From the IMG/VR virus record IMGVR_UViG_2529292908_000014, positions 1 through 17,277 of that record: a stretch of 17,277 nt of DNA; one strand, written 5' to 3'. Both the position numbers and the translations under genes were made by a program. Below, one piece after another: positions 1-17,000 of the stretch (positions are counted from its first letter, which is position 1; each line of letters starts with the position of its first letter). The notes below the pieces were generated by a model. The model saw nothing but the letters and a program-made list of their open reading frames with translations. It did no database searches and was not told the DNA's origin. This DNA is from a virus (Duplodnaviria; Heunggongvirae; Uroviricota; Caudoviricetes).

Positions 1-572
1 CGCTCACTTGCTTTTGGAGAAGCTGATTATATCGTCCGGGTTCACTGGCGAGGATTGCGCTGGTTAACTGCAGAAGGAATGCGCTTTGACATGATGGGTT
101 TTCTGCGCGGGCTGGATTGCGGTAAGAACGGTGAAACCACTGTAATGATAGGCAATTCAGGTAATAAAAAGCCGGAGCTCCCTTTCCGGCACGTCTCATT
201 GCCGTATCACTTCCTCCCGAAAAAGCATTAATCAGTAAAACCCGACTGCTCAGCGAGAATCGTCGAAAAGGACGAGTAGTTCAGGCGGAAACGCTGGAAG
301 CAGCGGGCCATGTGCTATTGCTAACATCATTACCGGAAGATGAATATTCAGCAGAGCAAGTGGCTGATTGTTACCGTCTGCGATGGCAAATTGAACTGGC
401 TTTTAAGCGGCTCAAAAGTTTGCTGCACCTGGATGCTTTGCGTGCAAAGGAACCTGAACTCGCGAAAGCGTGGATATTTGCTAATCTACTCGCCGCATTT
501 TTAATTGACGACATAATCCAGCCATCGCTGGATTTCCCCCCCAGAAGTGCCGGATCCGAAAAGAAGAACTAA
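1..572 (+). pseudogene. IS4-family (IS186-like) DDE transposase, C-terminal ~190 codons; 5' end outside window; reading frame broken (frame 1 open 1-228, frame 3 open 168-572)
   Basis: Two overlapping stop-free frames both read as transposase (frame 1 ...GEADYIVRVHWRGLRWLTAEGMRFDMMGFLRGL...GNSGNKK; frame 3 ...RVVQAETLEAAGHVLLLTSLPEDEY...YRLRWQIELAFKRLKS...). The switch falls in the A-run aataaaaag at about 163-171. Either a true -1 frameshift or a homopolymer sequencing error. Confidence 0.6.
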
Positions 573-743
573 CTCGTTGTGGAGAATAACAAAAATGGTC
601 ATCTGGAGCTTACAGGTGGCCATTCGTGGGACAGTATCCCTGACAGCCTACAAAACGCAATTGAAGAACGCGAGGCATCGTCTTAACGAGGCACCGAGGC
701 GTCGCATTCTTCAGATGGTTCAACCCTTAAGTTAGCGCTTATG
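1..743 (+). mobile_element. 3' portion of an IS186-like (IS4-family) insertion sequence; continues beyond the left window edge; right terminal inverted repeat ends at about 743
   Basis: Transposase-like reading frames with the IS4-family Y(2)R(3)E(6)K signature (YRLRWQIELAFKRLK, about nt 380-425). Terminal 23 nt caacccttaagttagcgcttatg (721-743) matches my recollection of the IS186 inverted repeat (CATAAGCGCTAACTTAAGGGTTG on the other strand). GC-rich flank ggtcggtggccacgg fits IS186 target preference. Identification is from memory, not a search. Confidence 0.65.
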
Positions 744-1563
744 GGTCGGTGGCCACGGCTTTCATGTTATGAATGCCTGTCTGACCACCACCTGCATTAC
801 CGCTGCCCTGCCCGGATAATGTGCGCACGCTGCCGTCCTCGTTCCAGATGTCCAGTGGCACCACGGCTACCTGTTTCTTGCTGTCTGCGCGGCGGGCGTG
901 GCTCTGAGCCAGTACTGTCAGTTCGGAGAAACAGCCGTTAATGGACCTGGTATCGTCCAGCTCCATCACGTTGTTCCCGGTACCGTCCAGCTTCAGAATC
1001 AGCGTGTCCACCGGCGTGGTGGTGTAGTCAGGGCCACCCACAACCAGCGTACCGTCAGGCTCAAACCACGGCCATAAGCCGCGACCGGCGGCAGCTTTAG
1101 CCAGTGCATCCCACGCACGCATCCCCGGCTCTATAACGACCTTGTCATTACGTGACACACCAGACGCCTGAATACGGATGCGCTGTATCCCCAGCGGTCT
1201 GACTATCCTGTCGATGACCTCGTCCAGTGTCAGCTGATTGGCGCTGAACACCGGCGCGGCACAGTCCACCAGAATGGCGGCATCATCACGCCCGGACAGG
1301 GTCAGCGCGCAGCTCTGACGGGATACACTGCGGCGCACGCTGTCCACGCGACCACTAAGGACCGTCTCATCTCCCACCTGCAAACGGACTGGCACACCCC
1401 GGACGATATCCGCCGGGAACACCTTTTCAGGCAGTCCCAGCTGAAGCTGCCACCCGTCGGCTGCTTTCAGGAAATCGCTGTCAATACGATAACTGCTCCA
1501 GTCAGAATGCGATCTTCCGGCAATGACCAGGCTGATTTTGTCGTCGTTATTTTGCATAGGCAT
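739..1563 (-). CDS. Baseplate hub protein, Mu gp44(P)/P2 gpD-like, 3'-truncated (274 codons; intact homologues are ~380 aa in my recollection); stop codon lies inside the IS terminal repeat
   Basis: ATG at 1563 (alternative ATG at 1557). Protein has the character of the tail late-control-D/baseplate-hub family (…LTLSGRDDAAILVDCAAP…). Last codon and TAA (739-741) fall within the IS repeat ending at 743. Position directly after the gp43-like gene. Confidence 0.55.
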   Translation of the reverse strand: MPMQNNDDKISLVIAGRSHSDWSSYRIDSDFLKAADGWQLQLGLPEKVFPADIVRGVPVRLQVGDETVLSGRVDSVRRSVSRQSCALTLSGRDDAAILVDCAAPVFSANQLTLDEVIDRIVRPLGIQRIRIQASGVSRNDKVVIEPGMRAWDALAKAAAGRGLWPWFEPDGTLVVGGPDYTTTPVDTLILKLDGTGNNVMELDDTRSINGCFSELTVLAQSHARRADSKKQVAVVPLDIWNEDGSVRTLSGQGSGNAGGGQTGIHNMKAVATDP

Positions 1564-2896
1564 TAATCACCATCCCGGCGGTTATGTTGTTCGGGTCACG
1601 CAGCTGCGGGTTCAGACGTTGCAGCTCTGCCGCACGGCTGTAATCACCGTACCACTGCCACGCCAGCAACAGCAGGCAACCGTCCGCCTGCACCTGTTTC
1701 TGCGTCAGCGGTGGGCGGCGTGACAGAGTCAGCAGGCCGACATCCTGCACGGATGCCGCCACGTTCTTCATGCTCTGAATGATTTCCGGGTACATCAGCC
1801 CCAGCGGTGATGCGGTTTCGGTTATCCGTTCGCGTTCGCCTTCATAGCGTTCACGGAACAGCGTGATGGCTGCCTGTAAGCGGGTGCGCACATCCCCGAC
1901 CAGTCGCCCGATATCCGCCGGTATAAGCTGCTCTGACTGGGCCTCATCTGACAGTATCGCCGTCGCCACGCTGGCCAGCTCTGAGGCTGCCAGAACCGCA
2001 TAAGCCGCTTTCACGTCGTGCACGTCTTCCACGGACGCATCCGGCGGAAGTGCCACAGACGGCGTTTTATCACCGCTGACCAGTGCGACCGGCAGCGCGA
2101 CCAGCTCATCCATATCTGCCATCACCTCATTCCAGCAGGTCATCACTGTCGCAGAACTGGCGACGTTGTCTTCCCCGGTCAGTCCGGTCGTGGTGGCGGA
2201 ATCACTACGCGCCAGAACCGGCACCGCGTGCCCGACATCTGACGTGTGGATTTCCAGCACCTCTGCCAGCCCGCCGATAAACTTTCCGGGTTCGCTGGTC
2301 AGTGACACAACATTTTCGACTGTGGAGAATGAATCACTTTTGAACGTCAGCAGGGTATTTACCAGCGTGGCACGCACTGCCTGGATTTTTTTAATCACGC
2401 TGTTAATGGTCTTTAAAGGGGGCGTAACAGCGTCAAAAAATTCGCTTAACTGTGCCAGTAACTTATCCAGTTCTTCAAATAACTGCTGTGCAAACAGCTC
2501 TGGTAACGGGGTGCAGAACAACGCACTGCCGGTGCGGCTCTCCAGAAAGCTCATGTCGATGGTGCAGCTGTCCGGGCTTTCTGCGTCATGGCGAATGCTG
2601 TAGCCGGTCACAATCACCGACGGTACGGAGCCGTAAACCGGGTGAATCAGCTCACCATCGCCGCCTTCGTCCAGGGCAGCGATCAGCTTTTCAAGTTTAT
2701 ATTCGTAATACTCCCCCCACAGGAACGCCGTCATGCGGAACGGTCGCGCCTTGCGTCCGAGGTCGTGCAAATCTGCCCCGTCAACAAACGGGTATTCATA
2801 GACCGCATGGTCGCGGCTGATTTGTTCATCCGTGTTCAGTACATCAAACTGCACGCCACGAAAGGAGGCGTTTTGCAGGTTTTCAGCCCAGCCCAT
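1547..2896 (-). CDS. DNA circulation protein, Mu gp43 (N)-like tail protein
   Basis: 449-aa ORF; N-terminus MGWAENLQNASFRGVQFDV...YEYPFVDGADLHDLGRKARPFRMTAFLWGEYYE resembles the DNA_circ_N family as I recall it. ATG at 2894-2896 overlaps the upstream TGA (TGATG coupling). Sits between the tape-measure ORF and the baseplate hub as in Mu. Confidence 0.7.
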   Translation of the reverse strand: MGWAENLQNASFRGVQFDVLNTDEQISRDHAVYEYPFVDGADLHDLGRKARPFRMTAFLWGEYYEYKLEKLIAALDEGGDGELIHPVYGSVPSVIVTGYSIRHDAESPDSCTIDMSFLESRTGSALFCTPLPELFAQQLFEELDKLLAQLSEFFDAVTPPLKTINSVIKKIQAVRATLVNTLLTFKSDSFSTVENVVSLTSEPGKFIGGLAEVLEIHTSDVGHAVPVLARSDSATTTGLTGEDNVASSATVMTCWNEVMADMDELVALPVALVSGDKTPSVALPPDASVEDVHDVKAAYAVLAASELASVATAILSDEAQSEQLIPADIGRLVGDVRTRLQAAITLFRERYEGERERITETASPLGLMYPEIIQSMKNVAASVQDVGLLTLSRRPPLTQKQVQADGCLLLLAWQWYGDYSRAAELQRLNPQLRDPNNITAGMVINAYAK

Positions 2897-5352
2897 CAGT
2901 AAGTTCCTCCCGTGCCTCTGTTACCGTCCTGAAGGTTGTATTTGTTCACTGCTTCCGCCACAATCTGACCATCGAGCACCAGTTGTGTGGTGAAATTAAT
3001 GGGGCTGGCAGGTGGCCCCCAGTGCGTGAGGTATCCCGGCTGGGTGATGCGTCCGGGTTGCGTTGATACTGATTCAGGCGTTGTGTTTCCGGCGGCTTTG
3101 TTGACCTGCGCCGGTGATGGCAGGGCATCAGCTGCGGCTTTTTTCCTGTCTTCCTCCCAGCGCCTCAACCACTCTTCGTTTTCGGTGGAGTAGCCTTCCC
3201 CAAACTGCCACCACGGCTGGTATTTTTTGCGGGCAGCATCGATGATTTCCTGGGGATATCGGGCGCGGATGCGCTTCCAGCGTTCCTCGCTTCCTTCGAC
3301 GGCGGCGTCTTCTTCCGGGCTGGTTGCGGTGGCCAGTGCCGTAACGGTGCCACCGAAAGAAAGCAGGCTACCGGCAATGCCGGGGAATTTAAATCCTTTG
3401 CCTTTTTTGACCGTGTTTTCAATTACATCACCGACAACCTCGCCAGCCTTGCCACCGGTTTTACCCCCGGTCAGGATTTTGATCCCGGCCCATGTCAGAG
3501 CCGCTGCGGTCATCGCTTCAATGGCGGTCGTGGCACCCACCACTGCCGTGGTCAGTCCCGGAAACTTTTCACCCGCCCAGCTTATGGCATCGGCCACAGT
3601 ACCGGACGCATCAGCCAGCTTTTTCATGCTGTCCATTTGTGAAAATTCAAGCGTGTTTTTGGCCTGTTCGGTTTTAAAGTCATTGAGGCCGGATATGAAT
3701 TTAAAATCCACATCACCCGCGCGCTGACCTTCCGGCAGGGTGCGCTGCTGATTAATCGCGTCTTCAACCTTTTTCCGGTATTCAGGGTTGTTACGGTAAG
3801 CCAGCAACGCTTTTAACGCCTGTTGGTCTGCAACCAGTTTCCCGACACCAAAGCCTTCAAGGAGTTTTGCCATCGAATCATAAACAGCTGTCTGCTCGCC
3901 TTTATCCCGGGCGGAGGCCAGTTTCTTTTGCAACTCCTGAAAGCGTTTATCGCTGGCAGCGATTTTGTCTATCAGACTGGACAGCGCATCTATCGGATCA
4001 AGCCCATGTTCGCGCGCCTGAACCAGCGTGCCGGAAAAATCAATTCCTTTACCGTTGTAATCAATGCTCTTTGCCGCTGTTTCAATATCGTGGCTGGTCA
4101 GTTTAGCCAGCAGGTTAAACACGTTATTTCCGGCCTCATCACTGCTTCCCGCCGTGATGGCGGCAGCTTCATTCAGCGCCAGAATCTTGACAAAATCATC
4201 CTTGCCTCTCATCCCCGCAGCTGACGCTGACCCCAGTTGCGAAGATAACCAGCGGGCCATGTCGCTCAGTTCAAAGCTACCTTCTTTGCCCGCTGCAATT
4301 GCCATATTCAGAACGGTGGAAATATCTTCATCCCTGAATCCAAAGGTCTTTTTACCCTTAAGCATCACATTAGCCAGGTCTGTCGCTGATGCACCGGAAG
4401 CCGTGGCGTATTTCATCAGTTCAGGCAGCCACTTACTGGCTGTTTCAAATGAAATACCGCCATCTTTCAGCAGGGCATCCAGCGTTTCGGCGGCGTCTTC
4501 TTTCGTGCCGCCACCCCAGGTCACCGCGTTACGGATGCTGTTTTTCATCTGCTCAAGACCAGCCCTGCGCCCCTCCAGCCCGCTATCACTGAAGGCGGTA
4601 TTGGCCATCATTGCCAGCTGGCGTTCGTAGCTCATCTGCTTTTTGACCGGCTGCGCCATAATGGCAGCACCTGCTGCGATACCAGCGCCTGTTGTCACGG
4701 CATTCCCGCCAAATGCAGCCGCACGGGCAAAACGCCCCGGTTCGGGGATAACCAGGTCAGGACGGTACGGGCCGTGGCGCAGACCACGCAGTTTTTTACC
4801 ACTACCGGCAACGGTCACCTTGATATTGTTGGCCGTGACGATGGTCCCCATACGCCAGACGCGACCCTGCCCGCACACTTCCGGGAAATCGTTTTTTAAA
4901 CGGGGGTTAAACTCCAGTTCAGCCTTGATGGCTTCCAGCATCGGATAAGCCTGGTCGATACTGTCCATAATGATGACCGGGTAATGCTTAATGGCCCGGA
5001 TAATGGTCCACAGGGTAAACAGCTGAGTCACCAGCGTGGATTTTGCTTCACCACGGGGCGCGGCGATGGCGTCGTTCTCCGGGTCCGGGCTTGCCACAAC
5101 CTGTGGCAGACGGCTGAACAGGTATTTATGCAGCTCACTTTTTGCCGGGTTGCGGACGTAGTGCGGGAAATAATTTTCGACAAAATAATCGTAGCCCGTC
5201 ACCGGGTCGCAGACTGCCGCCCGGCGGGCCTGTGTGGCCTGCGGGTTAACATCGAACCCCAGACATTCAGCCTCGATGGTCTGGCGGAGGTTGGCGATGT
5301 ACTCCTGCAGGCTTCTCTGAAACTCTTTAATGGAAAGTTTACGTTTTGCCAC
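2896..5352 (-). CDS. Chimeric ORF: large terminase N-terminal ATPase fragment (about 220 codons, nt 5352->4747) fused in frame to a tail tape-measure protein (about 615 codons, nt 4746->2899); probable deletion product
   Basis: N-terminal part has a deviant Walker A (AAPRGEAKST), Walker-B-like VIIMDSID and the terminase motif LRGLRHGPYRPDLVI, but the expected DDxE and nuclease domain are missing. From PEPGRFARAAAFGG onward the sequence is tape-measure-like (GSFELSDMARWL, Gly/Ala-rich hydrophobic stretch …LTGGKTGGKAGEVVGDVIENT…). The six-frame track gives 2896..5409 from a TTG; GTG at 5350-5352 directly after the methyltransferase stop is the more plausible start. Confidence 0.6.
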   Translation of the reverse strand: MAKRKLSIKEFQRSLQEYIANLRQTIEAECLGFDVNPQATQARRAAVCDPVTGYDYFVENYFPHYVRNPAKSELHKYLFSRLPQVVASPDPENDAIAAPRGEAKSTLVTQLFTLWTIIRAIKHYPVIIMDSIDQAYPMLEAIKAELEFNPRLKNDFPEVCGQGRVWRMGTIVTANNIKVTVAGSGKKLRGLRHGPYRPDLVIPEPGRFARAAAFGGNAVTTGAGIAAGAAIMAQPVKKQMSYERQLAMMANTAFSDSGLEGRRAGLEQMKNSIRNAVTWGGGTKEDAAETLDALLKDGGISFETASKWLPELMKYATASGASATDLANVMLKGKKTFGFRDEDISTVLNMAIAAGKEGSFELSDMARWLSSQLGSASAAGMRGKDDFVKILALNEAAAITAGSSDEAGNNVFNLLAKLTSHDIETAAKSIDYNGKGIDFSGTLVQAREHGLDPIDALSSLIDKIAASDKRFQELQKKLASARDKGEQTAVYDSMAKLLEGFGVGKLVADQQALKALLAYRNNPEYRKKVEDAINQQRTLPEGQRAGDVDFKFISGLNDFKTEQAKNTLEFSQMDSMKKLADASGTVADAISWAGEKFPGLTTAVVGATTAIEAMTAAALTWAGIKILTGGKTGGKAGEVVGDVIENTVKKGKGFKFPGIAGSLLSFGGTVTALATATSPEEDAAVEGSEERWKRIRARYPQEIIDAARKKYQPWWQFGEGYSTENEEWLRRWEEDRKKAAADALPSPAQVNKAAGNTTPESVSTQPGRITQPGYLTHWGPPASPINFTTQLVLDGQIVAEAVNKYNLQDGNRGTGGTY

Positions 5353-5353
5353 G

Positions 5354-6094
5354 TCACACCTGCACTGCTTCTGTCTGGGCTTTTTCGATACGTGCGCAGG
5401 CGATATCAAAATACTGGTTAGTCATTTCAATGCCGGTAAACCGTCCGCCACGGGCAAGTACAGGGATGGCGGTAGTGCCGCTTCCCATAAACGGATCAAG
5501 GACGTGCGCATCCGGTGTCAGCGGTTTAACCAGCTCAGCCATCAGCTGAACCGGCTTTGCGGTCATGTGCAGTTTTTCGGACGGGACGACACGCTGCGTA
5601 ATCACACCCGGGAACGGGCCACCGTGCGGGCATTTGTCGAGTTTTCCGTTGCTGCCCCAGACCACATACTCGGCCTGATGCCGAAAATAGCCAGTGTGTG
5701 GCGCACGGGAAGCCTGCGTTTTATCCCAGACAACCAGACCACGCCACAGCACACCACCGGCCTGAAATGCATCTGTAAGCGCCGGTAGTTGTCGCCAGTC
5801 ACTGAACACCATGAAATAACCGCCGGAATTCAGCCTGTGCAATGCATGAGATATCCACATGGAACACCAGAACGCCCAGCTGCGCTGGTCGCGGTTATCG
5901 CCGGTGAACTCGGCATACTGGGTGTGACCGATATACTTGTCCGAAGGGGCCATGCTGCGGTCTGATTTGTGTGTACCACCACTGCTGTAAGGCGGGTCGG
6001 TAATGACGGCATCAAAACGTTCGGATAACGCCGGCAGCACATCAAGAACATCACCGCAATACAACGTTGCGTTACCAATAATCTGTTTTTGCAT
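5354..6094 (-). CDS. DNA methyltransferase, beta-class amino-methyltransferase (N6-adenine or N4-cytosine), no restriction partner in the window
   Basis: 246-aa ORF from ATG at 6094. Motif IV DPPY near the N-terminus (…DAVITDPPYSSGG…) and motif I FxGxG near the C-terminus (…LDPFMGSGTTAIPV…), the permuted order typical of this class. Confidence 0.85.
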   Translation of the reverse strand: MQKQIIGNATLYCGDVLDVLPALSERFDAVITDPPYSSGGTHKSDRSMAPSDKYIGHTQYAEFTGDNRDQRSWAFWCSMWISHALHRLNSGGYFMVFSDWRQLPALTDAFQAGGVLWRGLVVWDKTQASRAPHTGYFRHQAEYVVWGSNGKLDKCPHGGPFPGVITQRVVPSEKLHMTAKPVQLMAELVKPLTPDAHVLDPFMGSGTTAIPVLARGGRFTGIEMTNQYFDIACARIEKAQTEAVQV

Positions 6095-13182: not shown

Positions 13183-13398
13183 TTAATGTGTGTTATGTGC
13201 GCGAGGCGCAACGTTTTCAGAAAAAAGATTCACGCCGTTATAGTCATTTCTAAGCGTTTCCTTGATAACATTATGTAATCCTGTTGCCACCTGAAGCTCC
13301 CTTTTGGAAGTGCCATCCTTCGAATAACTCCCTGTAATCCGGGTAAGAGTCGCGCCTTTTTCATTGGTATAGATAATTACTTCTAATTTAACCGCCAT
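13183..13398 (-). CDS. Hypothetical early protein (71 aa)
   Basis: ATG at 13396-13398 preceded by GAGAGGAAA; begins 13 nt after the upstream TGA. Confidence 0.5.
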   Translation of the reverse strand: MAVKLEVIIYTNEKGATLTRITGSYSKDGTSKRELQVATGLHNVIKETLRNDYNGVNLFSENVAPRAHNTH

Positions 13399-13410
13399 TC
13401 TGATTTCCTC

Positions 13411-13650
13411 TCATTGCCATACGACGGTACAGCCGTCGATACAGGACGTTTTAACCACGCGGCGCAGGCCGCTGAATGTCTGAACGATTTCCGTTACCGG
13501 CCATACAGGACCACCCACAGGCGGGCAGGCATAAACCACAGGTAAACGGTGATGCTGCCCCGTTACGCGACCGCCAGTGGTATGGATAGCCACACGGGCA
13601 CGGGAACGGACGGCATTAATGGCCTGCTTTTCCATCATTTTGTTCTCCAT
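13411..13650 (-). CDS. Hypothetical early protein (79 aa from ATG at 13650; MENKMMEKQ…), contains several Cys
   Basis: ATG at 13648-13650 overlaps a TGA as TGATG; this junction lies inside the downstream copy of the 19-bp direct repeat; the six-frame ORF extends to 13728. Confidence 0.4.
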   Translation of the reverse strand: MENKMMEKQAINAVRSRARVAIHTTGGRVTGQHHRLPVVYACPPVGGPVWPVTEIVQTFSGLRRVVKTSCIDGCTVVWQ

Positions 13651-13668
13651 CAGTGAATTAACATTTCT
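13650..13668. repeat. 19-bp direct repeat, copy 1 (tcagtgaattaacatttct)
   Basis: Exact match to 14022-14040, read directly; on the coding strand it encodes E-M-L-I-H-stop. Confidence 0.8.
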
Positions 13669-13789
13669 CTGCTGTATTATCTGAGCGTAAACGCCAGTCG
13701 GGGCTGATACCGGGGCAGGTGGGCACACATGCGTGCAAGGCGGTAAGCCCGACGAAACCCCTGCAAAGTCTGCTCAAAAGGAATAATCA

Positions 13790-14008
13790 TTAATCGCGCA
13801 CAGCATTCATCAACATCCCAGTCGTCGCTGGTGTTTCCGGTTCCATTGATTTCCCGTTCGCGGGAATATAAATCAATACGCAGTTCACCCGGCACGAAGC
13901 AATCAACAAACGGAATAATTTCACCGGGGGTTCCATTAAAATAAATACAACCATTACGACCGATATTCCGTAGTGCTTTAATTTCTTTTTTACGGCAATC
14001 TGTTCCAT
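13790..14008 (-). CDS. Hypothetical small protein (72 aa) at the Mu kil position; gene call uncertain
   Basis: ATG at 14006-14008, 13 nt after the B stop, weak AAGG upstream. An alternative stop-free frame (B's frame, 14021->13680, 114 codons without a canonical start) overlaps it, so which frame is coding is unresolved. Confidence 0.3.
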   Translation of the reverse strand: MEQIAVKKKLKHYGISVVMVVFILMEPPVKLFRLLIASCRVNCVLIYIPANGKSMEPETPATTGMLMNAVRD

Positions 14009-14021
14009 ACCTGACCTTTAC

Positions 14022-14040
14022 TCAGTGAATTAACATTTCT
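14022..14040. repeat. 19-bp direct repeat, copy 2 (tcagtgaattaacatttct), covering the last codons and stop of B
   Basis: Exact match to 13650-13668. Confidence 0.8.
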
Positions 14041-14915
14041 GCGAATTTATCTATGGCCTGCACACTGACCGGCGCATCGCTGATATCGCAAATCCGGTAC
14101 ACACCGCGCGCCAGTTTGAACAGGCGGCGGGCATTACCCAGCGAGCGCGCGTAAAGCGCCTCGCTGATTTCCGGTTCTGCTGCTTCCGGCATCAGCCCGG
14201 TGGCTATCTGGTTAAAATCTTCCTGCGCCAGCGTGTCGCCCAGGTTAAGCGCCAGCGCCACGCGGCTGTATAACTGCGCAAATTCACCACGACGCCCCTT
14301 GAGATTAATCAGAAGACGAGGCATACCCGCCAGGACAACCCCGATACCCGCTTTATCATGCAGACGGCGCAGAACCTCCAGTGCGCGATAGGGGAGCAGT
14401 TCAGCTTCGTCCACCATCAGCAGACGACCGGAATCACGCAGTTCGCGCACACAGGCATCAATCAGTTCGTGAATGTTGCCGCGAACCTTTACCCCCAGCT
14501 GGCGGCACAACTCCTCAAGCAGTGTCCTGGCTGTATAGCCCGGGTCAGCCTCAATCAGGACCGCATCCCGGTTTCTGGCGGCGTATTCACGCAGAATCAT
14601 TGTTTTGCCAAGGCCAGCTGCGCCATACAGCACACAGATTTCACATTCCAGGTGAGCGTAGGCCAGCACCTCCAGTCCTTTGGCAGCCATACCAGTGGTC
14701 ACAAACTTTGCTTTAATACGGCGGCTGTTTTCCTTTTCCCGCTCACGGGTCACAAAGGCAGAAATGCGTTCTTCAATATCAGCCATATCGCCCTGATATT
14801 TACCCTGCAAATACTGGTTGATAACGGCGCTGCTACGACCAATTGCACGGGCGACGTGGGTCTGCGTATAGCCGCGACGGGCCATTACGTCATTTAATTG
14901 CGTAATTAAACTCAT
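14022..14915 (-). CDS. B: Transposition ATPase B (MuB-like AAA+ target DNA activator)
   Basis: 297-aa ORF, ATG at 14915 with AAGG upstream. N-terminal HTH-like segment ending …VINQYLQGKYQGD (Mu B has …FINDKYNGD), Walker A GAAGLGKT, Walker B LLMVDEAELL. Follows A as in Mu. Confidence 0.85.
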   Translation of the reverse strand: MSLITQLNDVMARRGYTQTHVARAIGRSSAVINQYLQGKYQGDMADIEERISAFVTREREKENSRRIKAKFVTTGMAAKGLEVLAYAHLECEICVLYGAAGLGKTMILREYAARNRDAVLIEADPGYTARTLLEELCRQLGVKVRGNIHELIDACVRELRDSGRLLMVDEAELLPYRALEVLRRLHDKAGIGVVLAGMPRLLINLKGRRGEFAQLYSRVALALNLGDTLAQEDFNQIATGLMPEAAEPEISEALYARSLGNARRLFKLARGVYRICDISDAPVSVQAIDKFAEMLIH

Positions 14916-14933: not shown

Positions 14934-17000
14934 TTAACGGTTGTTTGTGCCGTTTTTCTTTAAATTGCGCTCGCGTTCAGATGCGAATAAATAAAGTTCT
15001 TCTTTTTCCTTTTTCTCCGGGCGCTCCAGACCAAATCCAAAATTAAACTCAGATTTCTGCGTAATAGCCGGGGTAAGCTCGCGTTTCGCCTCTTCGATTT
15101 TCTGCGTGGCCCGTGCAATACGGCCCCTGACGCGTTTCTCCAGTTTTTGCTCGATAACTGGTTTAGCGAAGGCATCAACCTTATTGCCGTTCCAGATGGC
15201 ATCGCAGATATAAGAGCCATCAGCCCGCCGGACAATGACACTGTTTGCATCATGAATATCGTAACTGACCCTGACTTCATTCCCGTGCTCTGCGGCCAGC
15301 TCATATGAGTAATAAATATTGTTGAATAACTGAATTTCCCCGCGAAATGTTTTGCGCGTCACCTCCGGTCTGAACATTTCATGCAGTTCTTCCGGCGACA
15401 GGAAATCAATTTCAACATTCTGCTCTTTTATCAGTTTCCGGCGATACGCTGCCGGGCTGTAATATTCGCCATCCTCTTTGCGGGGAAGGCTGCTGTGTGG
15501 CCGGTTGTTATAGCGTCTGACCTCCAGCTCTATGGCCGCCATCAGTTGCTCAAAGGTGGGGATTTCATCCCTCGCCTTAACCTGCCGTTTTGTCAGCTCT
15601 TTCCCTTTGTGGGTGGCCTTAATGGCTGACTGCATAATCCGTTGCTGCATCATTACGGTTTCCTTGTCTGCTCCCTTTGAGCAGTACGTCCGGAAACTCA
15701 GGGCCACATCCCGGGGAATTTCCTTGTTAAGCCTTTCAATCACCCCGCGCCCCTGTGGGTTACCTGGTATCCCCGTGTGATGTTCCACACCCAGCCGGGG
15801 GAGAACCCCGGTAATATCGGCATCAAGCACCCGGTTTTTTTCGCCGCCCCCGTTATCGGAGTAATAAATCAGCGGTATCCCGTGCTGTGCCATGCCGTAA
15901 CGCAACGCATCAGCAACGGCTATCACGTTTTCCGACAGGGACAGTGACCAGCCCACAACAAAGCGCTGCCCCGCATCCATAACCAGCGTCACTTCTGGCC
16001 GGAAAATATTGCCGGTCAGGGGGTTAAACGCGGTCATTTTCATACAGTGACCATCCCCGACCCATACCGCATTAACCGGTAATGTGCTCCAGTCGCGCCG
16101 CACAAAGGGATTGAGCGAACGCCAGGCTGAACCGGTGGAGCGGAAACGCTCTTTAACAATCACCGGGACGCTGCTTAACACCCGTCTGACTGCGTGAACT
16201 GAGGGCAGTGCCGCCAGCATTCCCGCATCGTTCGCGTGCTTCTCATGCCACCAGGCTGAAAACTCGCGATACGCATATTCAACGGTCGGGCGCTTCCATG
16301 AGCGATAGAACATAAAGAAATCGCTCAACCACCAGACCTGCTCCCACGGTGTTCCCTTATGATGACCGGGAGCCAGTAACGCCAGTAACTGATTGGCATC
16401 ACCGCGCGCCATCACCCAGCTGGAGTACCAGCTATCCAGGCTGCCGGTGCTGACACCGGTTCGCTTTCCCTGACGTGCATTTGCAGTATTCGCTGCTTCG
16501 ATAATGCGGTCAGGTAACGCCCCCATGCGCACACCATCAACGATGTGCTTTAACGCGGCCTTCCTGGTCATTCTGGCGTATTCACGCAGTTTATGCACTT
16601 CAGTAGCCAGCAATATCCGCGCATCAGCAATGGCCTTTTGCTTGTCGGTCAGTGCCTGGACTTCGCGTAATGCCAGTTCCGGGCATTTGACCATCACTTC
16701 CAGTTCATCGCGAACAGCAACGTTTTTAACTGCCTTCTGCTCAACCACAACGGGCAGTTGTGCATCTTCCAGAACCTGCTGGGCTAGACGTTGACGTAAA
16801 GCCTTCTGCGTTTCAGTGGGAAGGCTATGAATATGATATTCAACACCCCCACCTTTCATTTCTCTAACTCTACTCGCCCACTTATCTCGCTTCGCTTTTA
16901 CCGCAATCCCTACTCGTGTTGATGGAATTCCCGGCAAAGATAGATCTGCTAATTCTTGGGCCGAATAGTGCGTTTTTACACAGTCATCACTCATAACCAC
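14934..17000 (-). CDS. A: Mu-type DDE transposase A
   Basis: 688-aa ORF. N-terminus …AQELADLSLPGIPSTRVGIAVKAKRDKWASRVREMKGGGVEYHIHSLPTETQKAL parallels the MuA enhancer-binding domain as I recall it. Size and position between ner and B. Likely start at ATG 16992-16994 (track start 17000 is GTG). Confidence 0.9.
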   Translation of the reverse strand: MVMSDDCVKTHYSAQELADLSLPGIPSTRVGIAVKAKRDKWASRVREMKGGGVEYHIHSLPTETQKALRQRLAQQVLEDAQLPVVVEQKAVKNVAVRDELEVMVKCPELALREVQALTDKQKAIADARILLATEVHKLREYARMTRKAALKHIVDGVRMGALPDRIIEAANTANARQGKRTGVSTGSLDSWYSSWVMARGDANQLLALLAPGHHKGTPWEQVWWLSDFFMFYRSWKRPTVEYAYREFSAWWHEKHANDAGMLAALPSVHAVRRVLSSVPVIVKERFRSTGSAWRSLNPFVRRDWSTLPVNAVWVGDGHCMKMTAFNPLTGNIFRPEVTLVMDAGQRFVVGWSLSLSENVIAVADALRYGMAQHGIPLIYYSDNGGGEKNRVLDADITGVLPRLGVEHHTGIPGNPQGRGVIERLNKEIPRDVALSFRTYCSKGADKETVMMQQRIMQSAIKATHKGKELTKRQVKARDEIPTFEQLMAAIELEVRRYNNRPHSSLPRKEDGEYYSPAAYRRKLIKEQNVEIDFLSPEELHEMFRPEVTRKTFRGEIQLFNNIYYSYELAAEHGNEVRVSYDIHDANSVIVRRADGSYICDAIWNGNKVDAFAKPVIEQKLEKRVRGRIARATQKIEEAKRELTPAITQKSEFNFGFGLERPEKKEKEELYLFASERERNLKKNGTNNR

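What the first reader, a model, noticed from the sequence alone, without database searches (positions are those of the whole stretch)
13650..14040. 19-bp direct repeats bracket a ~350-bp segment that extends the B reading frame by 114 stop-free codons
The sequence tcagtgaattaacatttct occurs at 14022-14040 and again at 13650-13668. On the coding strand both copies read GAA ATG TTA ATT CAC TGA (E-M-L-I-H-stop); the first is the genuine 3' end of B, the second sits just before the next gene and overlaps its ATG as TGATG. Between them, the frame of B stays open for 114 codons after its TGA (14021 -> 13680) with no ATG, GTG or TTG until the GTG at 13895. A second ORF with a normal ATG (13790-14008) overlaps it in another frame. 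This looks like a recombination or insertion scar that carried a small gene to the kil position; alternatively the open frame is a B extension reached by stop-codon read-through, or a remnant of a longer ancestral gene. None of the listed gene calls explains the repeat.
Basis: seen in the sequence. Interest (0 to 1): 0.6.

Follow-up and report, generated by a model that had tools for sequence, protein, structure and literature searches.

The report
Recombination scar around a frameshifted prophage gene
A small accessory gene of a Mu-like prophage sits between the transposition gene B and the kil homologue, bracketed by a 19-bp duplicate of B's 3' end left by recombination, and the "start-less" open frame exists only because this copy has lost one A from a run of seven; this is ordinary phage mosaicism plus gene decay.

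Summary
The 19-mer occurs exactly twice, 372 bp apart, with 0 matches expected by chance. The frame after B's TGA is open for 114 codons without a start codon.

The segment holds a real gene, X (110 aa). It starts at the ATG at 14008 and is annotated "hypothetical protein" (WP_032300915.1) in near-identical E. coli prophages. Those relatives have A7 where the window has A6 (13986-13991). The lost base separates the ATG from the rest of the gene and, by accident, puts the body in B's frame.

X is under purifying selection (dN/dS about 0.1). In every Mu-like prophage examined it is the first gene after B. It has no Pfam, PHROG, NCBIfam or fold match.

About 48 of 58 related E. coli prophages lack the segment. 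Salmonella-type relatives have B-X-kil with no second copy. The repeat is therefore a scar of unequal recombination at a short patch (CG[C/G]AGAAAT) between a B-X-kil phage and a B-kil phage.

B read-through, programmed frameshifting and a transposon footprint are not supported. The gene downstream is the Kil homologue, so X lies between B and kil. The prophage is otherwise degraded as well. Interest is low.

The parts
14022..14915 (-). B gene (MuB-like AAA+ transposition ATPase, 297 aa). Its last 19 nt form the upstream repeat copy.
   Evidence: ORF. Pfam AAA_22 E=9e-23, TniB, N-terminal HTH. Annotated 'AAA family ATPase' in near-identical prophages. Follows the Mu-type transposase 14934..17000.
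14022..14040 (-). Repeat copy 1: the genuine 3' end of B (..A GAA ATG TTA ATT CAC TGA).
   Evidence: The same B tail is found in short forms and in repeat-free Salmonella-type forms.
13677..14008 (-). Gene X: an accessory early gene of an uncharacterised 86-111-aa family, here 332 nt because of a 1-nt deletion. The intact allele is 333 nt and encodes 110 aa. ATG at 14008-14006, AAGG Shine-Dalgarno at about 14018-14015, stop TAA at 13679-13677.
   Evidence: Annotated CDS WP_032300915.1 in L001. Adding one A gives a protein 100% identical to it, with only 2 synonymous nucleotide differences. 13 other copies are 330/333-nt single ORFs. dN/dS 0.08-0.14 between lineages. Homologues.
13986..13991 (-). 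A6 homopolymer, the site of the frameshift (relatives of this lineage have A7). With G13985 it reads A_AAA_AAG in the ATG frame.
   Evidence: Alignment. A-run counts. Pattern scans found only A7 copies. All 7 E. coli complete genomes of this X lineage span 354 nt against the window's 353.
13790..14008 (-). 72-aa ATG ORF: a by-product of the frameshift (8 genuine X codons, then out-of-frame sequence). Not a gene.
   Evidence: The exact product is absent from the 15-billion-protein collection. The corresponding frame carries 2-4 stops in intact relatives.
13650..13668 (-). Repeat copy 2: a non-coding remnant of a B 3' end, lying between X's stop and the kil leader.
   Evidence: Absent from repeat-free B-X-kil relatives, where TAATGCAGCGGAGAAATCATCATGG follows X. 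In short forms the identical sequture (..CACTGA followed by TGGAGAAC) is the true B/kil junction.
13650..14021 (-). The 372-bp segment that is present or absent among related prophages (equivalently 13669-14040, because of the repeat).
   Evidence: Two-piece BLAST matches spanning about 730 bp instead of 1101 bp. Alignment A1.
13411..13638 (-). Kil homologue (75 aa), the next gene downstream, with GGAG Shine-Dalgarno at 13648-13645.
   Evidence: BLASTP to Mu Kil E=2e-5. BLASTP to the 74-aa neighbour of a distant X homologue that carries PF26843 Kil_protein, E=3e-11. That protein against Mu Kil gives E=7e-8. Start taken from the RefSeq annotation in L001.

Best explanation
The 372-bp segment is a mosaic module of a Mu-like prophage. 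It holds one small accessory early gene (X) that lies between the transposition gene B and the kil homologue.

Shown: X is an independently initiated, selectively constrained gene. In the wider phage group it is the first gene after B. Prophages without it have one copy of the 19-mer, which there forms the B/kil junction. Repeat-free B-X-kil arrangements also exist.

Inferred: the two-copy arrangement arose by unequal (illegitimate or microhomology-guided) recombination between a B-X-kil genome and a B-kil genome. The crossover fell in a 9-nt patch. In that patch X's 3' flank (GCAGCGGAGAAAT, the kil Shine-Dalgarno region) resembles B's codons for A-E-M (TTCGCAGAAATG). The recombinant therefore kept X and its flank, followed by the last 12-19 nt of a B gene, followed by kil. 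Once formed, the 19-22-bp direct repeat, together with the homologous B and kil flanks, lets the segment be lost or transferred among co-resident relatives.

Shown: the odd start-less frame that is in phase with B has a separate and trivial cause. This copy of X lost one A from a lineage-specific A7 run. That uncouples the ATG at 14008 from the gene body and generates the spurious 72-aa ORF.

Inferred: because the prophage is otherwise degraded, this is most likely real decay, though a homopolymer sequencing error cannot be excluded. X's biochemical function is unknown. My guess is a dispensable early host-interaction protein of the semi-essential early region.
For: - The repeat is exact and non-random.
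- Long and short forms: 58 E. coli genomes match the region and 10 carry X. All 6 short forms inspected have a single 19-mer followed by TGGAGAAC.
- Repeat-free B-X-kil in Salmonella-type and more distant prophages: TAATGCAGCGGAGAAATCATCATGG follows X, and L016 has no repeat.
- Junction variants bracket the crossover patch: GCAGCG|CAGAAATG in L011-13, L021 and L023, against ACAGCAGAGAAATG in the window lineage.
- The window's B and kil are 93-96% identical to the short form L002 but only 66-67% to the repeat-free type. X is 75-80% identical to that type.
- X is a real gene: 13 intact copies, dN/dS about 0.1, 21 family representatives among 1.84 billion proteins, and always directly after B.
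- Frameshift: A6 against A7. Repair gives 100% identity to WP_032300915.1.
- Degraded prophage: IS421 end, and an 11.4-kb deletion fusing terL to the tape-measure gene.
- Published precedent for an inserted phage gene bracketed by a duplicate of the upstream gene's 3' end: PMC3029335.
Against: - The direction and number of events are inferred, not observed.
- No repeat-free B-X-kil form was found within the E. coli lineage itself. The repeat-free examples have B and kil only about 66% identical to the window's.
- The two junction variants differ by 3 substitutions in 14 nt. That may mean two independent crossovers, or later mutation.
- A 29-nt block (AGAAATGTTAATTCACTGATGGAGAACAA) is perfectly conserved in all long forms even though X has dS 0.39 between them. 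This hints at constraint or gene conversion that a plain neutral scar does not predict.
- Without reads I cannot tell a real A6 allele from a sequencing error.
- X's function is entirely unsupported by homology or fold.
Confidence: 0.82

Rival explanations
1. Direction reversed. The two-copy long form is the older state in the E. coli lineage, and the common short B-kil forms are its deletion products, made by slippage or recombination between the 19-22-bp direct repeats.
For: Deletion between the repeats would yield exactly the single-copy junction seen in short forms. A long form and a short form share near-identical B and kil. B-X synteny is ancient and widespread.
Against: This does not explain where the second B-tail copy came from. 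The sequence after the downstream copy (TGGAGAAC..) is a B/kil junction, which presupposes a B-kil genome. Phage Mu itself has B followed directly by kil. The idea is compatible with the best explanation as a secondary process, not as the origin.
Confidence: 0.3
2. The A6 allele is a functional recoding site. Ribosomes starting at ATG 14008 slip -1 on A_AAA_AAG (13991-13985) and make full-length X, either as a programmed frameshift or as a leaky, attenuated expression state.
For: The heptamer is in the correct phase, and the -1 product is identical to the wild-type 110-aa protein. A_AAA_AAG is among the most shift-prone sequences in E. coli, and AAA-AAA runs can rescue 1-nt deletions at 25-60% in expression constructs (PMC5009743, PMC1851650).
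Against: Not conserved: all 11 other records of this lineage have A7 in a single ORF, and other lineages have no A-run at all (GTCAGGAAAGAA, CTCAGAAATGAA). There is no stimulatory structure downstream (z = -0.24). The 0-frame product is not conserved and is not on record. The host prophage is defective.
Confidence: 0.05
3. The open frame is a C-terminal extension of B, made by read-through of its TGA, or a remnant of a longer ancestral B.
For: In this window the frame after TGA is open for 114 codons and is in phase with B.
Against: The phase relation exists only because of the 1-nt deletion. In intact relatives X starts 16 or 17 nt after the first base of B's stop, so it is out of frame. B ends at the same TGA in short, long and repeat-free forms. 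X has its own ATG and Shine-Dalgarno, and its homologues are free-standing 86-111-aa proteins.
Confidence: 0.01
4. The segment is a small mobile cassette and the 19-mer is its target-site duplication.
For: Direct repeats flank a segment that is present or absent among relatives.
Against: There are no terminal inverted repeats and no recombinase. X occupies the same position without any duplication in many relatives. X was found only directly after B. Part of the repeat (AGAAAT) pre-exists in X's native 3' flank.
Confidence: 0.02
5. The A6 run is a sequencing or assembly error, and the real prophage has an intact X.
For: Homopolymer length errors are common. The allele is unique to the window among all records searched. 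The rest of X differs from the closest relative only by 2 synonymous changes. Other frameshifted X entries in databases also sit at homopolymers (P0008 at a C5 run).
Against: The prophage shows independent, unambiguous decay (IS421 and an 11.4-kb deletion), so an inactivating mutation would not be out of place. No read data are available.
Confidence: 0.35

Closest known systems
Mycobacteriophage Island3 gene 68 versus Brujita (Pope et al. 2011, PLoS One, PMC3029335)
   Same: A small ORF of unknown function is present in one phage and absent from its relative. It is bracketed by a duplicate of the 3' end of the upstream gene. The authors interpret this as recombination between the short repeated sequences, with the direction (deletion or intermolecular gain) left open.
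   Different: There the repeat is about 50 bp and forms the coding C-terminus of the inserted gene. Here it is 19-22 bp, lies outside X as non-coding sequence, and repeat-free intermediates are available to locate the crossover patch.
Phage 'morons' (Juhala/Hendrix definition, as summarised in PMC3029335)
   Same: An extra gene lies between two genes that are adjacent in related phages. Its base composition deviates: 47.3% GC against 55.0% and 57.5% in the flanking genes.
   Different: No promoter or terminator of its own was found. It is transcribed within the early operon. It is an old, position-conserved member of the phage group rather than a foreign import.
Phage Mu semi-essential early region (B, kil and the E-genes; AF083977)
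   Same: The gene order Ner-like, A, B, small early genes, Gam or DUF3164, GemA, Mor is the same. The downstream 75-aa gene is a Kil homologue.
   Different: Mu has no gene between B and kil (18-nt gap). X has no Mu counterpart and no Pfam or PHROG family.
dnaX / IS-type -1 frameshifting at A_AAA_AAG, and 'compensatory' frameshifting at indels (Atkins et al. 2016, PMC5009743; Belfield et al. 2007, PMC1851650)
   Same: The same heptamer sits in the right phase, and a -1 slip would restore the wild-type protein.
   Different: The site is not conserved, has no stimulators, and was created by the deletion itself.

Membership tests
Recombination scar at a phage module boundary (insertion flanked by a duplicate of the upstream gene's 3' end) | The downstream repeat copy is identical to the 3' end of the upstream gene | tested here: met
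   19/19 identity, with 0 matches expected by chance.
Recombination scar at a phage module boundary (insertion flanked by a duplicate of the upstream gene's 3' end) | Relatives lacking the segment have one copy, at the junction of the two flanking genes | tested here: met
   6 of 6 short forms inspected. A span of about 730 bp instead of 1101 bp in most of the 48 X-less genomes.
Recombination scar at a phage module boundary (insertion flanked by a duplicate of the upstream gene's 3' end) | A parental arrangement without the duplication exists | tested here: met
   B-X-kil without a second copy in L005-L009, L014 and L016, although only in lineages whose flanking genes are about 66% identical.
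Phage moron | An extra DNA segment between genes that are adjacent in related phages | tested here: met
Phage moron | Own promoter and terminator flanking the ORF | tested here: not met
   0 promoter-like and 0 terminator-like sites in 13350-14150. This was a simple consensus scan only.
Phage moron | Base composition different from the flanks | tested here: met
   47.3% GC against 55.0% (B) and 57.5% (kil).
Transposon / IS target-site duplication | Terminal inverted repeats and a transposase or recombinase within the element | tested here: not met
   No inverted repeat at the segment ends. The only ORF is X.
Programmed -1 ribosomal frameshift (dnaX type) | Slippery heptamer X_XXY_YYZ in the 0 frame | tested here: met
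   GT A_AAA_AAG at 13991-13985, read from ATG 14008.
Programmed -1 ribosomal frameshift (dnaX type) | Conservation of the shift site and of the two-frame organisation in homologues | tested here: not met
   All 13 other copies are single ORFs. A7 or no A-run at that position.
Programmed -1 ribosomal frameshift (dnaX type) | A stimulatory element (downstream structure) | tested here: not met
   Folding of 14030-13900 gives z = -0.24 against shuffles.
Programmed -1 ribosomal frameshift (dnaX type) | Frameshift product detected | not testable with these tools
   Needs a reporter assay or mass spectrometry.
Stop-codon read-through extension of B | The downstream frame is in phase with B in relatives and lacks its own initiation signals | tested here: not met
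   The offset is 16-17 nt in intact relatives, and X has its own ATG and Shine-Dalgarno.
Mu Kil family (PF26843), for the downstream gene 13638..13411 | Sequence similarity to Mu Kil and to proteins matching PF26843 | tested here: met
   E=2e-5 to Mu Kil. E=3e-11 to a PF26843-bearing protein, which itself gives E=7e-8 to Mu Kil. All are 74-75 aa.
Mu Kil family (PF26843), for the downstream gene 13638..13411 | A match to the Pfam model above its gathering score | not testable with these tools
   The local Pfam copy lacks the model. Mu Kil itself gives no hit.
Any described protein family, for X | A significant profile or fold match | tested here: not met
   [not shown]

The most novel reading that the evidence does not exclude
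X may represent an unrecognised, position-locked partner of MuB. It is a roughly 100-aa early protein that is always encoded immediately after B in a broad set of enterobacterial Mu-like phages, with conserved DWDVD and FRRAYRLARL motifs. It could have a specific role in transposition-target choice, host takeover or counter-defence. The A7/A6 tract plus A_AAA_AAG slippage could act as a leaky on/low switch for it in lysogens.
Probability: 0.08. Interest if true: 0.5.

Novelty: new member of a known kind. Interest (0 to 1): 0.2.

Why it matters
The main value is as a clean-up. It explains an apparently strange frame (open, start-less, in phase with B) as a homopolymer frameshift in an ordinary gene. 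It also gives a well-resolved example of how phage mosaic joints form, because the short parent type, the repeat-free parent type and the recombinant are all available, with the crossover confined to about 9 nt.

Two practical consequences follow:
- Annotators should call X here as a frameshifted pseudogene or check the reads. They should not call the 72-aa ORF.
- X is a conserved, wholly uncharacterised small early protein that is tightly syntenic with MuB. It is a reasonable but unremarkable candidate for functional screens of the Mu-like early region.

Tried and rejected
- Phage collection BLAST of the region gave only two distant B-gene hits, with no close phage record.
- The genome-contig scan for X found no relatives, since there is one genome per species.
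- Exact look-up of the window's 72-aa ORF found nothing on record.
- The afdb50 library was unavailable.
- Pfam, PHROGs, NCBIfam and the PDB sequence profile gave nothing for X.
- A Pfam test of the Kil assignment was impossible because the local copy lacks PF26843.
- I considered whether the duplication once extended further upstream, because AGATAA..GCAG occurs near both copies. I rejected this because the same X 3' end is present in repeat-free relatives, so the similarity is native to X or due to chance.
- I considered the 72-aa ORF as an overlapping gene. I rejected it because that frame has 2-4 stops in intact relatives.

Full report
**1. The observation**

The 19-mer TCAGTGAATTAACATTTCT is present exactly twice, at 13650-13668 and 14022-14040. 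No further copies appear even with three mismatches, and none appeared in 200 dinucleotide-preserving shuffles. The repeat finder reports the same pair at 372-bp spacing.

All genes here are on the minus strand:
- a Mu-type transposase A at 17000..14934 (Mu-transpos_C, HTH_Tnp_Mu_1);
- B at 14915..14022, a 297-aa AAA_22/TniB-like ATPase.

The upstream copy of the 19-mer is B's last five codons plus TGA. The frame after that TGA is open for 114 codons and ends at TAA 13679-13677. Its first canonical start is the GTG at 13895. A 72-aa ATG ORF (14008..13790) overlaps it in another frame. So the description is accurate.

**2. Why the long frame has no start**

Read from the ATG at 14008, the sequence is ATG GAA CAG ATT GCC GTA AAA AAG AAA. 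The long open frame lies at -1 relative to it.

Near-identical E. coli prophages (99.7% over 1.1 kb; JNE21-009 and others) span 1102 bp against my 1101 bp. They carry an annotated 333-nt CDS, WP_032300915.1 'hypothetical protein', which starts at exactly this ATG. The alignment shows GTAAAAAAAGAA (A7) there against GTAAAAAAGAA (A6) in the window.

Adding one A to the window gives a 110-aa protein 100% identical to WP_032300915.1. The only other differences in the gene are two synonymous third-position changes.

Thirteen other copies of the gene, which I call X, are 330 or 333 nt and form single ORFs. Only the window's copy is 332 nt. The A7 run is specific to the window's closest lineage. Other lineages read GTCAGGAAAGAA, GTCAGAAAAGAA or CTCAGAAATGAA at that position.

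The A6 allele turned up nowhere else:
- Pattern scans allowing A6-A8 found only A7, in three metagenome contigs and one viral contig.
- All seven E. coli complete genomes of this X lineage span 354 nt against the window's 353.
- The window's 72-aa product is not on record among about 15 billion proteins.

The start-less frame and the ATG ORF are therefore two halves of one gene split by a 1-nt homopolymer deletion. That the body falls in B's frame is an accident of the deletion. In intact relatives X begins 16 or 17 nt after the first base of B's stop codon, so it is out of phase with B.

**3. X is a real gene**

- Between lineages dS reaches 0.4-1.35 while dN stays at 0.03-0.17, giving dN/dS of 0.08-0.14.
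- The word-indexed search found 109-110-aa homologues in E. coli and Salmonella.
- A profile search of 1.84 billion representatives found 21 family members of 86-111 aa. They share EIxALR, PF, G.L.D.YS..RE.G, DWDVD, (I/L)PF and FRRAYRLARL motifs.
- In every context examined (six different family members) X is the first gene after a MuB-like ATPase, 7-14 nt downstream, in an operon of Ner-like HTH, Mu transposase, B, X, small genes and DUF3164.

**4. The neighbour is kil**

The 75-aa gene at 13638..13411 is a Kil homologue:
- It matches Mu Kil at E=2e-5.
- It matches, at E=3e-11, the 74-aa gene that follows a distant X homologue and carries a precomputed PF26843 Kil_protein hit.
- That protein matches Mu Kil at E=7e-8.

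The local Pfam copy lacks the model, so I could not test membership directly. X therefore lies between B and kil, not in kil's place. Mu itself has B followed directly by kil.

The likely kil start is the ATG at 13638, behind the GGAG at 13648-13645. This agrees with the annotation in relatives and with repeat-free homologues that have only that ATG. The TGATG overlap is probably not the start.

**5. What the repeat is**

Three arrangements exist.

- *Short form.* About 48 of the 58 E. coli genomes that match the region lack X. In all six that I read, B's tail occurs once and runs straight into kil's leader..GAAATGTTAATTCACTGA|TGGAGAACAAGACGATGG.
- *Repeat-free long form* (Salmonella-type and more distant prophages). 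B's tail is followed by GTAAGG..ATG(X), and X's stop is followed by TAATGCAGCGGAGAAATCATCATGG(kil). There is no second B tail.
- *Two-copy long form* (the window and 9 other E. coli genomes, plus viral and metagenome contigs). X's stop is followed by TAATACAGCAGAGAAAT-GTTAATTCACTGA-TGGAGAAC.. in the window lineage. In sister lineages it is TAATGCAGCGCAGAAAT-GTTAATTCACTGA-TGGAGAAC.., where the repeat is 21-22 bp.

So the two-copy form is X with its native 3' flank, joined to a short-form B/kil junction. The join falls inside a patch, CG[C/G]AGAAAT. There X's flank (kil's Shine-Dalgarno region, GGAGAAAT) happens to resemble B's ..GCA GAA ATG.

The simplest origin is one unequal crossover at this microhomology between a B-X-kil phage and a B-kil phage. 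This step is inferred.

The flanks fit that origin:
- The window's B and kil are 93-96% identical to a short form, but only about 66% identical to the repeat-free type. X is 75-80% identical to that type.
- The RM9088-type long forms have a different B, whose tail reads ..AAGTGA, yet carry the same downstream CACTGA copy. This shows later shuffling of the flanks.

Loss by recombination between the repeats would produce exactly the short junction, so some short forms may be secondary.

The segment has no terminal inverted repeats and no promoter-like or terminator-like sites. Its GC content is lower than its flanks: 47.3% against 55.0% and 57.5%.

A close published parallel is mycobacteriophage Island3 gene 68 versus Brujita. 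There an inserted ORF is bracketed by a duplicate of about 50 bp of the upstream gene's 3' end, and the authors interpret it the same way (PMC3029335).

**6. Rivals**

- *Read-through extension of B.* Excluded by the frame argument in section 2, and because B ends at the same TGA in all forms.
- *Programmed frameshift.* Worth stating, because the deletion creates A_AAA_AAG in the ATG frame and a -1 slip would give exactly the wild-type protein. The heptamer is notoriously shift-prone in E. coli, and AAA-AAA runs can rescue 1-nt deletions (PMC5009743, PMC1851650). However, the site is not conserved and no stimulatory structure follows it (z = -0.24). The 0-frame product is also not conserved. 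At most this is incidental leakiness.
- *Transposon footprint.* Does not fit: there are no inverted repeats or recombinase, and X sits in the same place without a duplication elsewhere.
- *Sequencing error.* I cannot decide whether A6 is an error or a true mutation.

In favour of a true mutation, the prophage is plainly decaying:
- Window 1-742 is an IS421 end that abuts the baseplate gene.
- About 11.4 kb of head and tail genes present in JNE21-009 are missing.
- That deletion fuses terL to the tape-measure gene near 4742-4745.

**7. Verdict**

The recombination-scar reading is supported and its predicted single-copy variant was found. The read-through and ancestral-remnant readings are refuted.

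The feature is an ordinary phage mosaic joint around a small, conserved, uncharacterised early gene, and that gene is frameshifted in this copy. It is a new example of a known kind and of low interest. The only modestly interesting residue is the X family itself, because of its strict synteny with MuB.

Noticed in passing
window 1-742: End of an IS4-like IS421 element (99.3% identical to copies in over 2000 E. coli genomes). It abuts or truncates the Mu gpP-like baseplate gene at 739..1563.
   Followed up: partly
window ~4742-4745 (ORF 2896..5409, minus strand): Compared with the intact JNE21-009 prophage, about 11.4 kb is missing: most of terL, the portal, head morphogenesis, protease, major head and tail genes, and the 5' end of the tape-measure gene. 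The 837-aa ORF is a terL'-'tape-measure fusion, so the prophage is defective.
   Followed up: partly
P0006, P0007, P0008 (homologues of X): Three other database entries are frameshifted versions of X. One is at a C5 run (GGAACCCCCGGT -> ..GTPVKLFRLL..). These are either recurrent homopolymer errors or recurrent inactivation of this gene.
   Followed up: no
window 13640-13668 and the same site in L003, L011-L013, L021, L023: The 29 nt AGAAATGTTAATTCACTGATGGAGAACAA (downstream repeat copy plus kil leader) are identical in all two-copy forms, although X shows dS 0.39 between these lineages. This suggests constraint on kil's translation-initiation region or gene conversion with B's tail.
   Followed up: no
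B 3' ends in L005-L009, L014, L016 versus window 14022-14040: The last ~18 nt of B (GAAATGTTAATTCACTGA; protein EMLIH*) are nearly invariant at the nucleotide level, even between B genes only about 66% identical overall. This short conserved boundary sequence could itself guide recombination.
   Followed up: no
[not shown]
   Followed up: yes
L003 (RM9088) 1-570 and 2646-3343: In this relative, two IS1A copies interrupt the transposase region and the gene after kil, so this is another decaying copy of the prophage family.
   Followed up: no
window 13183-13398 (minus strand): The 71-aa gene after kil has unusually low GC (41.2% against 53% for the window) and no family match. It may be another accessory module.
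   Followed up: no
tool note: The local Pfam-A copy has no model for PF26843 (Kil_protein), although precomputed annotations cite it. Mu Kil itself returns no hit.
   Followed up: yes
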